Assembly (NCBI GenBank): GCA_937968065.1
Contig: CALBUD010000033.1
Coordinates: forward strand, 1 to 32,000
Reading direction: 5' to 3'
Length of the DNA stretch: 32,000 nt
DNA from: Candidatus Iainarchaeum sp.
GTDB taxonomy: Archaea; Iainarchaeota; Iainarchaeia; Iainarchaeales; CSSED10-239
Shown here: in pieces, positions 21,401-22,511 of the stretch
How positions within the stretch are numbered: the stretch's first letter is position 1
Layout of the letters: the number at the start of each line of letters is the position of its first letter
Program-made: the position numbers and the translations under genes
Notes under the pieces: generated by a model
The model's database searches: none
Told to the model about the DNA's origin: nothing
The model's input: the letters and a program-made list of their open reading frames with translations, nothing else

Positions 21401-22511
21401 TTTGTAAGGTTTTAACTAATGTGTTTGATTTATATAAACTTACAGAAACATTTGGAATTGCTTCTTTTGAAACATTATCAATAACTTTAAACTTAAGATG
21501 TCCGATATATGCTTTTTCAAGAAGAACTTCTTTTTCTTCTAAAATATTCTCTGTAATTATTATTTGAATATTATCAAGTTCTGTTAATGGTTTATATCTA
21601 TCATCAAGATCATAAGATAAAACAGTATAAGTTCCAACTAAAAGATCATTAAAAACAACAACACCATTTGAGTTTGTAACTCCTTCTCTTGCTATTTGTT
21701 TTTCTTTATTTAAAATACCAATACTTAAATTATTAATTGGTGTTTTTAAATCTTTATCTAAAAATCTTAAAGAAACATTTCCTTTTCTTGATTCTTGGAA
21801 ACTTAAGTTTACTTCTTTAACAGTATTATCATTATCTACTAAAAAAGATTCAGTTGTATTTATTGTTGGAGAATTAATTAATATATTTAAATAACCACAA
21901 TCTGTTGGAACATCAGATAAAGTTAAAGTTCCATCATTTGTTATAAGATTTGTTTTTAAATAATTTGAATTTTCAGAACAAGTTATTTCTGAAACTGTTA
22001 ATGGAGAGGTAAAAAGTTCATTGTTTGATTTAAAATTAATTGTTTTTGAAAAGAAACCTGTTTTTGATGCTAAATAAACATTATAATTATTTTGAGTATT
22101 AAAGTTTACTGATAAAGGAGTTTCTAAAGAATATTTATCACTGTTAATTGCAAAGCTTAAAGATTCTTTTTTAACACCAGTAACTGTTGAAATTCCCATC
22201 TCATCTGTAACTAATAGTTTTTCTGTATCTCCAAACATAACTCTTATGGTTTCATTTGGAATTGGATTATTAAAAGAGTCTGTAAATCTTAAGGTATAAG
22301 AATCATCTGTTACAGGAGAACTGCCTATAAATAGATATACTAAAAATAATATTAATAAAAGAATAATAAGATTAAAAACAAAGAAAGTTGGGATTCCTTT
22401 TTTTTCTAAAGGATCAACAATCTTGTATAGATTTATACCTTTTTTTTCAAGATTATCTAACCATTTAAAGTATTTTTCTTCTTGTTTATAATAAAAAGAT
22501 CTAAGTCCCAT
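15486..22511 (-). CDS. Giant (2,341 aa counted from ATG 22511) membrane-anchored multi-domain surface protein with an embedded Q/N/Y/G-rich tract (protein D)
   Basis: The stop is TAA at 15488..15486. The ORF track begins at 22514, but that codon is TTG (plus-strand caa). The next codon is ATG (22511..22509). It gives MGLRSFYYKQEEKYFKWLD..., which aligns residue for residue with the MGLKKLYYNLEDRYYNFVE start of C.

- TM helix: FFVFNLIILLLILFLVYLFIG.
- Beta-sandwich repeats, for example LKVTDSQGSVVPEANVNVLL...TDAQGLFGFIL.
- Double-Cys block QCSSLLCYSV.
- N-x-C strands (IENKCSSNL, VTNNCLEAV, VMNTCFDQG).
- The C-terminal part shares YYCDQEQF, SPGEYLIILKK and IIKLWHNPSKF with module M of A and B. 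Confidence 0.9.
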   Translation of the reverse strand: MGLRSFYYKQEEKYFKWLDNLEKKGINLYKIVDPLEKKGIPTFFVFNLIILLLILFLVYLFIGSSPVTDDSYTLRFTDSFNNPIPNETIRVMFGDTEKLLVTDEMGISTVTGVKKESLSFAINSDKYSLETPLSVNFNTQNNYNVYLASKTGFFSKTINFKSNNELFTSPLTVSEITCSENSNYLKTNLITNDGTLTLSDVPTDCGYLNILINSPTINTTESFLVDNDNTVKEVNLSFQESRKGNVSLRFLDKDLKTPINNLSIGILNKEKQIAREGVTNSNGVVVFNDLLVGTYTVLSYDLDDRYKPLTELDNIQIIITENILEEKEVLLEKAYIGHLKFKVIDNVSKEAIPNVSVSLYKSNTLVKTLQTNIEGLVTFGVEENITYKVIFNNENYIIKTENNLKISDTVRQVILHPLTSENLNSLLVTVEDAFFKPIDFAVVRLWDAEENIVIKTMTADVYGKVVIPNLDSEKTYKLDAIKGDFVSEHTNPFRIVPQEINEQKIKMIIGEGTFNISLITDFGENYQGNVFVYDASNDLILEDKITSTNQEGFTFIKIRADKEVYFVIDNYDSKLITPRYKISAEEIKNLEFVLPRTTSTSSIEFIGFYNSLGEKINSVTSGQQVTAKFVVNASKKYSKIVAHIRTGDAPSPACSTTTYNVLEDNLFIKEIRFAKPSFVGSETFTPCLGETTDFSNKTLRNAKWFNLTINNPMEGSYLVEADIVVLDTALQNQFVNYRAEFFENSTIFRSPVDNSLTNSTKQPLYAQVKQAILFIGSQNQCSSLLCYSVSIRNTQTNLTRNIIDNYNAQINNDYRLSFNLNILEGKNAPNSYLSITTGNSVRLQEYSINSVSGNLLTGTDFSEIEIGSLTSNDFISGDLSFRVIDDVSDVVKISLISNGEEVFSKSILIDIKEAKEMQVEMFPRKIIPLLPNDVILKVTDSQGSVVPEANVNVLLNDYVITTGNTDAQGLFGFILPAPDLNDTLRIIVTKNEYRMNDTSVVIDDKVITPVPQEIILNLDTSRDVREIYNFSLLNNTSVPLSIVSVSTTTNNEFVTLNTNLSENIINGDSQADVELVATLTEKGINLYTQQTIKTTVQVRVRNDELNKTWMINIPVTVRVVLGNALDSLDCLKILPLDATIRTTASEEKTIDFTIENKCSSNLNAVDLGNIIAMVDWENKTESGVLSLVINNREYILENLQENIIIPSMPRNTKTTATLKFKAHKVTSSVTSPTIHFSSLKGNMNGIDEIKSSLKTNIIVNNYSECIDIPQQPVPVIACNWFSGMGMYDQYYGQGALGQFNRNLNPALYNQQMSGGYFGGVNYAQSYNMNRQFNPLNQYQYAPGYMTQQQGYNFPQQNLVGQTGYFGQQASTVYPYNYPTSQYQNQYSNYNYYNFMDPYMQGGYGGMGFTNSMNCPVRPFTVTNNCLEAVDIKLEQNYGVVVSSDKEFTLEPNQSTQVLVTGAEEMGTFRVPVTAKPSLASENVYSLVGEVPVNVTLPLSFMPSKCIQVTPQKLDFSNIFDPKYQLVKVMNTCFDQGYRLVEVNYLDLTSLDFDGVSFLNVGDMQGRIQPIKVDYLTDLQTNKPIEVWDIALRRNPEIKNTSSAKAYMNKYGQNSIAAGVISTFRRMLIDVEDEVNLKFVLQVGLQPPHGMSSLVYHNVGMELKDNFQWLILDNRDNWEIIKEFLGKDLNYSIFTADELLFVDTSVKLTYDLEIQRDGRNIVFIKVPEDALTKNKFRRVDLEETAQRCFMGMVKDFPINGINETSHIQDLGLFYLDESYTSPLKVSIEFIKKHYFKLCFERPIETIDNDRRENNKLEIYDFFKDKNTKEGINFTIMQINPNTQQSVLQGHTLIGVDTRIETNPISGVSVQEVCDDGKSPVQGVCDDGSVPKPVTTEALDLSCYDPTLTSKDGVTGKENYELLGFDQILFEYDSNKITETSCEEYYCDQEQFYDYLKKKADSLENTQDKVKLGEILFYKDGESIKKSDAVLDLCVECNEFDEKETLETYIKQAKDILEKVPKHLREITIIKTKVTGISVIPDTLIMLGGNHYMSVEYFLETFKYDDLTNAQKIEFYLNMEVFIGDSPNLFVSKLKKFSNTNEPYNTNILKSYKTSRSLFNDYNYTYTENTNVSSPGEYLIILKKNGNDLSIKIGDKVNDLDEEYSKNPLFFNPINPLFAQTNNSLNAPFLPEYTKTTYTVNDWAEIQKGYIFTLENMANYRFIDSRPIYFNENYSGKLVNTATGNVDVGSYSGKNLFLLKDTTSNFAIYSNPQITNIKNMSVFSILNEVDNNFKIYNVLMNNMSPNISYKTMKDVFEQINNENVCLKIEDSIIKLWHNPSKFK
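16853..16918 (-). repeat. 2 x 33-nt in-frame tandem duplication encoding VQ(E/G)VCDDG(K/S)
   Basis: Copy 1 (16853..16885) is ttccatcatcacaaaccccttgaacaggtgact. Copy 2 (16886..16918) is ttccatcatcacaaacttcttgtacagaaacac. The first 16 nt are identical and 24 of 33 match overall. The protein reads SVQEVCDDGKSPVQGVCDDGSVP. Confidence 0.8.
18275..18670 (-). other. Q/N/Y/G-rich, almost uncharged low-complexity (prion-like) tract inside D (~130 aa)
   Basis: The translation is GMGMYDQYYGQGALGQFNRNLNPALYNQQMSGGYFGGVNYAQSYNMNRQFNPLNQYQYAPGYMTQQQGYNFPQQNLVGQTGYFGQQASTVYPYNYPTSQYQNQYSNYNYYNFMDPYMQGGYGGMGFTNSM. It is flanked by ordinary beta-sandwich sequence: ECIDIPQQPVPVIACNW upstream and NCPVRPFTVTNNCLEAVDI downstream. 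Confidence 0.85.
20730..22300 (-). other. N-terminal array of carboxypeptidase-regulatory-like/PEGA-like repeats in D (approximate bounds)
   Basis: Consecutive ~80-aa units such as YTLRFTDSFNNPIPNETIRVMF...TDEMGISTV, LKFKVIDNVSKEAIPNVSVSLY...TNIEGLVTF and LLVTVEDAFFKPIDFAVVRLW...ADVYGKVVI. I assigned these by eye. Confidence 0.6.

What the first reader, a model, noticed from the sequence alone, without database searches (positions are those of the whole stretch)
22314..22511. Conserved cytoplasmic leader in front of the signal anchor of the giant proteins
Three giant proteins begin with an alignable ~30-40-aa hydrophilic leader before the TM helix:
- D: MGLRSFYYKQEEKYFKWLDNLEKKGINLYKIVDPLEKKGIPTFFVF
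- C (15277..15456): MGLKKLYYNLEDRYYNFVERTGLYKITDKIDKVMPSFILF
- A (7483..7650): MSFKESWQNFLTKVDDRIPIKKITAPLDKKFALTSFFLF

The shared pattern is aromatic-x-x-x-E-(D/E)-(K/R)-(Y/F), then (I/L)-Y/K-K-I-x-D/A-P/K-(L/I)-(D/E)-K-K, then P/T-(S/T)-F before the helix.

An ordinary signal anchor needs only a few basic residues. A conserved structured leader suggests a dedicated recognition step such as targeting, secretion chaperoning, assembly or cytoplasmic docking. From memory, similar leaders occur on PEGA/CarboxypepD_reg proteins of DPANN archaeal bins. I cannot verify that here.
Basis: partly seen in the sequence, partly recalled or inferred. Interest (0 to 1): 0.6.

Follow-up and report, generated by a model that had tools for sequence, protein, structure and literature searches.

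The report
Conserved cytoplasmic leader of Iainarchaeota giants
The giant surface proteins of a whole phylum of tiny, probably host-dependent archaea (Iainarchaeota, DPANN) all start with the same unannotated ~45-residue cytoplasmic segment fused to their single membrane anchor; it is the best-conserved part of these proteins, and it most likely docks or holds them at the inner face of the membrane.

Summary

- **Copies in this genome:** D, C and A read exactly as quoted. A fourth giant starts just beyond the window, and a fifth lies on another contig. Both carry the same leader. No other open frame in this genome does.
- **Significance:** pairwise similarity is only marginal, but a profile built solely from other families recovers C, the fifth giant, D and A. 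Profile-profile tests link the A and fourth-giant types.
- **Distribution:** the leader occurs in 206 of 215 genomes of the phylum, usually 3-7 copies each, at the head of 1,000-3,300-aa open frames. It is always directly followed by a hydrophobic helix.
- **Conservation:** it is the most conserved 46-residue window of protein D (77% against 37% identity), with mostly synonymous codon changes.
- **Annotation:** no Pfam, NCBIfam or PDB relative exists.
- **Features:** an amphipathic Tyr-rich helix, a Pro-punctuated segment and P-S-F at the membrane. The leader is neutral to acidic, not basic.
- **Export signal unlikely:** other 1,000-1,600-aa exported proteins here use plain signal peptides, and there is one SecY.
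- **Best reading:** a retained cytoplasmic docking or anchoring tail. This is inferred.

Two small membrane proteins that always close the giant cluster are candidate partners. First readers of this scan noted the same motif in two other genomes; nobody followed it up.

The parts
22374..22511 (-). Leader of giant D (residues 1-46): amphipathic helix, Pro-punctuated segment, P-T-F at the membrane edge
   Evidence: Translation. Best match to the leader profile in the genome. AF2 helices at residues 3-23 and 28-37. Most conserved 46-aa window of D.
22314..22373 (-). Hydrophobic helix of D (residues 47-66), the only strong hydrophobic segment of the protein: signal anchor
   Evidence: Sequence identity among orthologues is only 0.37, against 0.77 for the leader.
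15337..15456 (-). Leader of giant C (residues 1-40), a variant with a 5-residue deletion between the two halves
   Evidence: Independent profile E 3e-14.
15277..15336 (-). Hydrophobic helix of C
7534..7650 (-). Leader of giant A (residues 1-39), a variant with a shortened first helix
   Evidence: Independent profile E 1e-4. A-type profile against the general profile: 98.4%, E 8e-15.
7483..7533 (-). Hydrophobic helix of A
24532..32000 (-). Body of the fourth giant (E/F). Its leader and helix lie just beyond the window, on contig C33 at about 32398-32566 (L001:899-1066, minus strand).
   Evidence: E/F-type profile against the general profile: 94%, E 1e-7.
15486..22511 (-). Giant D, 2,341 aa, CarboxypepD_reg/Ig-like ectodomain
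10645..15456 (-). Giant C, 1,603 aa
172..7650 (-). Giant A, 2,492 aa

Best explanation
The segment is the N-terminal hallmark module of one paralogous family of giant, single-pass surface proteins found throughout the phylum Iainarchaeota.

**Shown**
- It is a translated stretch of about 45 residues under strong protein-level selection.
- It is always fused without a spacer to the protein's hydrophobic helix, which in D, C and the fifth giant is the only one passing the hydropathy cut-off used.
- It consists of an amphipathic, tyrosine-rich helix (core Y-[YF]-x-h-E-D-K-[YW]-Y-x-h-L-D). This is followed by two copies of a short D-K-x-x-P-x-aromatic unit, the second ending in P-S-F at the membrane edge.

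**Inferred**
- The helix is an uncleaved type II signal anchor, so the leader stays in the cytoplasm, pressed against the inner membrane face.
- There it acts as a docking and retention tail. It holds the five giants in the membrane against load on their 2,000-residue ectodomains.
- It also binds a conserved partner, which could be the other leaders, the two small polytopic membrane proteins that always close the giant-gene cluster, or a cytoplasmic protein.
- In this way it would resemble the short conserved cytoplasmic tails of adhesion receptors.
For: - **Distribution:** present in 206 of 215 genomes of the phylum and 58 of 58 high-quality ones, mostly 3-7 copies per genome. It defines 868 protein clusters in an exhaustive search.
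- **Always on giants:** in closed or near-closed genomes, every listed match heads an open frame of 1,523-3,255 aa.
- **Always next to the helix:** in 161 of 161 testable proteins the leader is followed at once by a hydrophobic 19-mer.
- **Conservation:** it ranks first of 2,296 windows in D orthologues, while the helix itself is no better conserved than the ectodomain. Selection is therefore on the cytoplasmic part, not on helix packing. Codon differences are 1,154 synonymous against 791 non-synonymous, mostly at third positions.
- **Invariant residues:** Tyr7 and Glu11 are 100% invariant and lie on one helix face with the aromatic 14/15 positions and Leu18. Pro39 (99%) and Phe41 (100%) are near-invariant. 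An invariant acidic residue in the apolar face argues for a specific contact rather than plain lipid binding.
- **Paralogue-specific variants:** each type (D, E/F, C, A, fifth giant) keeps its own conserved variant across genera.
- **Cytoplasmic domain upstream:** the fifth giant carries a confidently predicted three-helix bundle (pLDDT 86-92) and a K/E-rich linker before the leader, so something happens on the cytoplasmic side.
- **Topology:** one relative has signal peptide, helix, leader, helix, which only makes sense with the leader inside. The N-flank is on average 1.1 charge units more positive than the C-flank.
- **Sole anchor:** D, C and the fifth giant have no other segment passing the hydropathy cut-off.
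- **Candidate partners:** a pair of small membrane proteins is present in 39 and 37 of 41 related genomes. It begins within about 250 nt of the stop of the last leader-bearing giant wherever the contigs allow the check.
Against: - No partner was identified. No interaction, topology or processing experiment or prediction could be run, because complex prediction and DeepTMHMM/SignalP are not on hand.
- The AF2 model is only moderately confident (mean pLDDT 72).
- Because all carriers are paralogues, sharing of the leader as such follows from common descent. Only its excess conservation argues for function.
- The synteny with the small membrane proteins shows a common locus, not contact with the leader.
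- Cleavage after the helix by signal peptidase cannot be excluded from sequence.
Confidence: 0.45

Rival explanations
1. Export or insertion signal extension. The leader would be an archaeal counterpart of the extended signal peptide region of autotransporters or the KxYKxGKxW/YSIRK motifs of Gram-positive giants. It would be read during targeting or translocation to pace or route the export of very long chains.
For: It sits directly before the hydrophobic export signal of very large exported proteins. It lacks the usual basic n-region, so something else may help orientation. Known bacterial precedents link conserved N-terminal extensions with giant surface proteins (PMC3153244, PMC7247746).
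Against: - Proteins of 1,039-1,629 aa in the same genome are exported with ordinary short signal peptides, whereas the 1,603-aa giant C has the leader. Size therefore does not call for it.
- The genome has one SecY, one DUF106/YidC-like gene and one SRP54/FtsY pair, with no accessory translocon in this 87%-complete genome.
- In the fifth giant and some relatives the leader lies 75-190 residues from the N-terminus, behind a folded domain or extra helices.
- There is no match to the ESPR, YSIRK or KxYKxGKxW models.
Confidence: 0.2
2. Lipid-facing anchor without a protein partner. The amphipathic Tyr-rich helix would lie in the cytoplasmic membrane interface and, with the proline kinks, act as a barb. 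The barb would fix N-in orientation and resist pull-out of a single helix that carries a 2,000-residue adhesin.
For: The first helix has a hydrophobic moment of 0.37-0.48, higher than 91-99% of shuffles. It is aromatic-rich. P-S-F lies at the interface. There are no basic residues to do the anchoring job. It is fused to the only strong hydrophobic helix of D, C and the fifth giant.
Against: Interfacial helices tolerate much sequence drift, yet here about 18 positions are conserved at 82-100%. These include invariant Glu11 and Asp19/Asp32/Asp35. The paralogue-specific variants are themselves conserved. The net acidic charge is unfavourable on anionic membranes.
Confidence: 0.2
3. Removable pro-leader. 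The segment would be cut off at the cytoplasmic face, like a prepilin leader cleaved by a PibD/FlaK-type peptidase, or by another membrane protease. The giant would be left with a pilin-like N-terminal helix, or released.
For: The D and E/F types have Lys-Gly directly before the hydrophobic helix, as in class III signal peptides. A genuine pilin-like protein with a Q-K-G-F start lies between the giants. The genome has pilus genes according to earlier notes of this scan.
Against: Across 211 leaders the residues before P-S-F are Val/Ile/Phe, not the small residue that prepilin peptidases need. Lys-Gly is confined to two paralogue types of one family. A 45-residue strongly conserved leader is far longer than known class III leaders. 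A discarded peptide would not be expected to be the best-conserved part of the protein.
Confidence: 0.07
4. No feature: chance or compositional similarity of low-GC N-termini, or wrongly called start codons.
For: Pairwise E-values inside the genome are only 0.003-0.006, and A has no significant pairwise partner.
Against: - The independent profile and the profile-profile tests are significant.
- There are about 840 matches in 206 genomes.
- Substitutions are mostly synonymous.
- Stop codons lie immediately upstream of the Met in relatives.
- Shine-Dalgarno-like or TATA-like context precedes each ATG.
Confidence: 0.01

Closest known systems
[quoted passage not shown]
   Same: These are the same protein family and the same locus. 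A closed 839,632-bp genome of the same genus (G003) has five leader-bearing giants between about 233 and 276 kb, a span of 42 kb or 5% of the genome.
   Different: The paper only mentions size, membrane anchoring and a likely role in cell-cell interaction. It does not describe the N-terminal leader: the term 'N-terminal' occurs zero times. Identifying G003 with Forterrea is my inference from genome size and layout.
Extended signal peptide region (ESPR, Pfam PF13018) of autotransporters, TpsA proteins and trimeric autotransporter adhesins (PMC3153244, PMC7247746)
   Same: It is a conserved N-terminal extension in front of the hydrophobic export signal, found on very large surface proteins.
   Different: ESPR is bacterial, about 25 residues long, and followed by a classical basic n-region and a cleavable signal peptide. 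The present leader has no sequence match to it. It is about 45 residues long, neutral to acidic, archaeal, and probably retained with the anchor. It is not tied to protein size in this genome.
KxYKxGKxW (NCBIfam TIGR03715) and YSIRK (Pfam PF04650) signal-peptide motifs of Gram-positive giant adhesins
   Same: They are lineage-specific conserved motifs at the N-terminus of giant wall or surface proteins.
   Different: Those motifs lie inside cleaved signal peptides and are linked to an accessory SecA2/SecY2 system or to septal secretion. Here there is no model match and a single SecY.
N-terminal retention module of giant RTX adhesins such as LapA (bioRxiv 10.1101/198937)
   Same: It is a small conserved N-terminal module whose job is to keep a giant adhesin attached to the cell envelope.
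   Different: The LapA module plugs an outer-membrane TolC-like pore and is released by the LapG protease. The present module is cytoplasmic and fused to a membrane helix, and no protease or regulator is known for it.
Cytoplasmic tails of adhesion receptors (for example integrin beta tails; my own knowledge, not tested here)
   Same: They are short tails next to a single membrane helix, better conserved than the large ectodomain, and they serve as docking sites.
   Different: There is no sequence relation, the topology is opposite (N-terminal tail), and no adaptor has been identified. This is an analogy of working principle only.
Archaeal class III (prepilin-type) signal peptides
   Same: The leader lies on the cytoplasmic side of an N-terminal hydrophobic helix. 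Lys-Gly precedes the helix in the D and E/F types.
   Different: The family-wide consensus lacks the small -1 residue. The leader is several times longer and more conserved than such signals.

Membership tests
ESPR (Pfam PF13018) | Match to the ESPR model at the N-terminus, followed by a basic n-region and a cleavable signal peptide | tested here: not met
   A Pfam scan of the five leaders at E up to 10 gave no ESPR hit. The 15 residues before the helix are net 0 or negative in 186 of 203 proteins.
YSIRK signal peptide (Pfam PF04650) | YSIRK-G/S motif in the signal peptide n-region | tested here: not met
   No hit at E up to 10.
KxYKxGKxW signal peptide (NCBIfam TIGR03715) with accessory Sec system | Match to the motif model | tested here: not met
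   An NCBIfam scan at E up to 10 gave no such hit.
KxYKxGKxW signal peptide (NCBIfam TIGR03715) with accessory Sec system | Second SecY/SecA dedicated to the substrates | tested here: not met
   The window's own genome has one SecY match. The genome is 87% complete.
Class III (prepilin-type) signal peptide | Basic residue at -2 and small residue (Gly/Ala/Ser) at -1 directly before the hydrophobic helix | tested here: not met
   In 211 leaders the two positions before P-S-F are Val/Ile/Lys and Val/Ile/Phe. Lys-Gly is found only in the D and E/F types.
Twin-arginine (Tat) signal | Arg-Arg motif before the hydrophobic region | tested here: not met
   There is no Arg-Arg in the five leaders of this genome or in the consensus columns.
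Type II signal anchor (uncleaved, N-terminus inside) | Hydrophobic segment long enough to span the membrane directly after the N-terminal segment | tested here: met
   161 of 161 proteins have a 19-mer with mean hydropathy above 1.6 right after the leader. The uncharged run has a median of 26 residues. AF2 predicts a helix at residues 42-63.
Type II signal anchor (uncleaved, N-terminus inside) | N-terminus cytoplasmic and no cleavage after the helix | tested here: inconclusive
   The charge difference weakly favours N-in: +1.1 on average, positive in 133 of 203 proteins. The architecture of P0087 fits N-in. The ectodomain families are extracytoplasmic. Cleavage predictors and experiments are not available.
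Giant membrane-anchored surface proteins of Iainarchaeota (Forterrea-type locus) | Proteins above about 1,600 aa with a single N-terminal anchor and CarboxypepD_reg/Ig-like repeats, about five per genome, clustered | tested here: met

The most novel reading that the evidence does not exclude
The leader would be an adaptor-binding cytoplasmic tail. It would couple all five giant adhesins of an Iainarchaeota cell to one membrane or cytoplasmic platform, with the two cluster-closing mini membrane proteins as core. The three-helix domain of the fifth giant would serve as an extra arm. The platform would assemble the giants into a single host-contact organelle and allow control of attachment from inside the cell, an archaeal analogue of receptor-tail/adaptor systems.
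Probability: 0.25. Interest if true: 0.75.

Novelty: new variant of a known kind. Interest (0 to 1): 0.55.

Why it matters
Iainarchaeota, like other DPANN archaea, are uncultured, have minimal metabolism and are thought to live off other cells. Their giant surface proteins take up about 5% of the genome and are the prime candidates for the contact apparatus.

The leader has three uses:
- It is a 45-residue signature that finds every member of this family in fragmentary metagenomes, where the giants are usually broken.
- It is the first hint that these proteins are engaged on the cytoplasmic side.
- It is a small, synthesisable handle for pull-downs, antibodies, reporter fusions and complex prediction, to find what the giants are connected to.

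It is also an example of a membrane anchor whose cytoplasmic flank is conserved but not basic.

Tried and rejected
- **Known families:** Pfam and NCBIfam scans of the leaders at E up to 10 gave only noise. A profile search of PDB sequences gave nothing. The ESM Atlas feature search on residues 1-70 gave no usable hit.
- **Fifth giant's N-terminal domain:** Foldseek against the PDB gave only weak, non-significant three-helix/HTH-like rows.
- **Leader on short proteins:** the 'shorter' search and the short representatives are all contig-cut or garbled fragments that run into beta-sandwich sequence.
- **Viral contigs:** no relative found.
- **Accessory translocon:** none found.
- **Other DPANN phyla:** a direct negative control could not be run, because no genome handle outside the phylum could be obtained. 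Restriction to Iainarchaeota rests on the names of the hits and on an exhaustive but unlabelled search.
- **Oddly labelled bins:** bins labelled Falkowbacteria, Chloroflexi, Thaumarchaeota and Micrarchaeota were checked. Each carries 5-7 leader giants, and two are the same genomes as members of the window's order. I read the labels as errors.
- **Prepilin-type cleavage:** rejected as a family-wide feature.
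Full report
**What is in the window**

All large genes lie on the minus strand. They are four giants, a 962-aa secreted protein and a 558-aa pilin-like protein.
- A: 172-7650.
- C: 10645-15456.
- D: 15486-22511.
- E/F: stop at 24532, start beyond the window.

The giants carry CarboxypepD_reg, SpaA, Big_1 and macroglobulin-type beta-sandwich domains.

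The window is contig C33 of a 699-kb, 85-contig, 24% GC genome.

**More copies than reported**

Reading the last 631 bases of the contig shows that the fourth giant also begins with the leader, as the idea predicts.

A profile of the leaders without the helix, run against all 4,281 six-frame ORFs of the genome, found five proteins. These are the four giants of C33 and a 2,115-aa giant on contig C36. In the C36 giant the leader lies at residues 131-183, directly before the protein's only strong hydrophobic helix.

**Is it more than chance?**

Pairwise phmmer E-values inside the genome are weak: 0.003 to 0.006, 8e-5 for C against the fifth giant, and none for A. The three-way alignment alone was therefore not compelling. 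Three independent tests remove the doubt.
- A profile built only from 13 leaders of other families of the order recovers C, the fifth giant, D and A, with E from 3e-14 to 1e-4. The next ORF has E=0.66.
- Profiles of A-type and E/F-type leaders from other genomes align to that general profile at 98.4% (E 8e-15) and 94% (E 1e-7).
- The leader is found in 37 of 41 relatives and in 206 of 215 genomes of the phylum. That includes 58 of 58 high-quality genomes, with about 840 matches in all.

**Distribution and architecture**

In closed or nearly closed genomes, every listed match heads an open frame of 1,523-3,255 aa.

An exhaustive HMMER search of 1.84 billion representatives gave 868 clusters at E up to 1e-3 and 378 at E up to 1e-10. 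The match is almost always within the first 60 residues.
- In 161 of 161 testable proteins a hydrophobic 19-mer follows at once.
- Short hits are fragments.

Where sources give names, they read Candidatus Diapherotrites, Iainarchaeum/ainarchaeum or simply 'archaeon'. They include Ca. Iainarchaeum andersonii and the complete AR10 genome. A few bins with other labels have the typical 5-7 giants, and two are demonstrably members of the window's order. Nothing was found in viral contigs.

A closed 840-kb genome of the same genus has its five leader-bearing giants in one 42-kb stretch. This matches the only published mention of these proteins (PMC5905446). That paper does not describe the leader.

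**Anatomy**

From 211 distinct leaders:
- Tyr7 and Glu11 are invariant.
- Asp12, Lys13, Tyr/Trp14, Tyr15, Leu18 and Asp19 are 73-100% conserved.
- Then follow Pro26, Tyr28, Lys29, Asp32, Pro33, Ile34 and Asp35, at 84-97%.
- Pro39, Ser40 and Phe41 are 89-100% conserved at the start of the helix.

The second half reads as two copies of a D-K-x-x-P-x-aromatic unit. This is seen directly in the sequence.

AlphaFold2, with a 33-sequence alignment, predicts helices at 3-23 and 28-37 and a membrane helix at 42-63, with mean pLDDT 72. The first helix is amphipathic: its hydrophobic moment exceeds that of 91-99% of shuffles.

Charge is unusual for the cytoplasmic flank of an anchor.
- The leader is on average net -1.15.
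- The 12 residues before the helix are never net positive.
- The flank after the helix is more acidic still, so the charge difference weakly favours N-terminus inside.

There is no Pfam, NCBIfam, PDB or Atlas relative.

**Selection and start codons**

Among 14 orthologues of D, the leader is the most conserved 46-residue window of 2,296. Mean pairwise identity is 0.77, against 0.37 for the whole protein and 0.37 for the helix.

Codon differences are mainly synonymous and at third positions, so the constraint is on the peptide, not on an RNA element.

In relatives, stop codons lie one or two codons before the Met. Each ATG in this genome has a Shine-Dalgarno-like or TATA-like context. The 'true start downstream' objection therefore fails.

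**Clues to function**

1. The same genome exports proteins of 1,039-1,629 aa with ordinary short signal peptides. It has a single SecY, one DUF106/YidC-like gene and one SRP54/FtsY pair. The leader is therefore not a general requirement for exporting long chains, and there is no dedicated translocon.
2. The leader need not be N-terminal.
   - In the fifth giant of the window's family it follows a conserved three-helix bundle (pLDDT 86-92), a short conserved helix and a variable K/E-rich linker. The bundle has no significant structural match.
   - Other relatives place extra membrane helices or a PLDc_N unit before it.
   - One architecture, signal peptide, helix, leader, helix, requires a cytoplasmic leader.
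3. D, C and the fifth giant have no other segment passing the hydropathy cut-off, so the adjacent helix is their only detected anchor.
4. Each paralogue type keeps its own conserved variant.
5. Two small polytopic membrane proteins (123 and 120 aa) follow the fifth giant. They are single-copy in 39 and 37 of 41 related genomes. Wherever contigs allow the check, they start within about 250 nt of the stop of the last leader-bearing giant; by my count this holds in at least 20 genomes across many families. They have no known family and look phylum-specific.

**Reading**

The facts fit best a retained cytoplasmic juxtamembrane module that anchors the giants and docks them to something conserved. 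The invariant acidic and aromatic face, the paralogue-specific variants and the extra cytoplasmic domain of one giant speak for a protein contact. I put this at about 45%.

The rivals are:
- an export or insertion extension, about 20%;
- a purely lipid-facing barb, about 20%;
- a removable pro-leader, about 7%.

None is excluded by experiment. All statements about topology, retention and partners are inference. What is shown is the existence, extent, conservation and context of the module.

**Comparison and novelty**

The module works like, but is not a member of, the known conserved N-terminal extensions of giant bacterial surface proteins (ESPR, YSIRK, KxYKxGKxW). It fails their model matches and lacks their accessory features.

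It also resembles, in principle only, the LapA retention module and receptor cytoplasmic tails.

It is an undescribed, phylum-wide sequence family: a new variant of a known kind of feature. Earlier first-stage notes of this scan recorded the same motif in two other genomes, and the mini membrane pair in several, without follow-up.

Noticed in passing
Contig C36 of the same genome: 3575-3946 and 3209-3571, minus strand (L002:576-947 and L002:210-572): Two tightly packed small polytopic membrane proteins (123 and 120 aa) lie directly after the fifth giant. They are single-copy in 39 and 37 of 41 related genomes and always sit at the end of the giant-gene cluster. They have no known family. They are candidate partners of the leader/anchor.
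   Followed up: partly
L002:6695-7309 minus strand (fifth giant, residues 1-205): The fifth giant has a conserved cytoplasmic N-terminal three-helix bundle (pLDDT 86-92), a short conserved K-E-K-I-L-x-E-L-S-K helix and a variable K/E-rich linker before the leader. There is no significant structural match.
   Followed up: partly
P0087, P0126, P0125, P0021 (relatives from metagenomes): Some relatives carry variant architectures in front of the leader:
- a signal peptide plus an extra helix;
- a PLDc_N (PF13396) membrane unit;
- repeats of a short I-F-D-K-I-K-like motif that resembles the first residues of the leader;
- an extra L-E-K-K-G-I-P unit at the very N-terminus.
   Followed up: partly
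L074, L077, L079, L109, L129 (public records): Genome bins labelled Falkowbacteria, Chloroflexi, Thaumarchaeota and Micrarchaeota each carry 5-7 leader-bearing giants on several contigs. Two of them are the same genomes as members of the window's order. The public labels look wrong.
   Followed up: partly
window 24532-32000 minus strand, residues about 2158-2206 of the fourth giant: A roughly 50-residue hydrophobic stretch lies deep in the ectodomain of the fourth giant. It is the only strong second hydrophobic region among the five giants and is probably the counterpart of the Gly/Ala-rich hairpin noted earlier in A.
   Followed up: no
Contigs C71 (279-5165), C35, C55, C49 of the same genome; window 7673-10561: Other large exported proteins (968-1,629 aa) of this genome start with ordinary short cleavable-looking signal peptides. 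This contrasts with the leader-bearing giants.
   Followed up: partly
window 22374-22511 and L001:899-1066: Only the D and E/F leader types contain the unit E-K-(K)-G-I twice, 14 residues apart. The second copy gives a Lys-Gly directly before the helix, as in prepilin-type signals. Other types lack it.
   Followed up: partly
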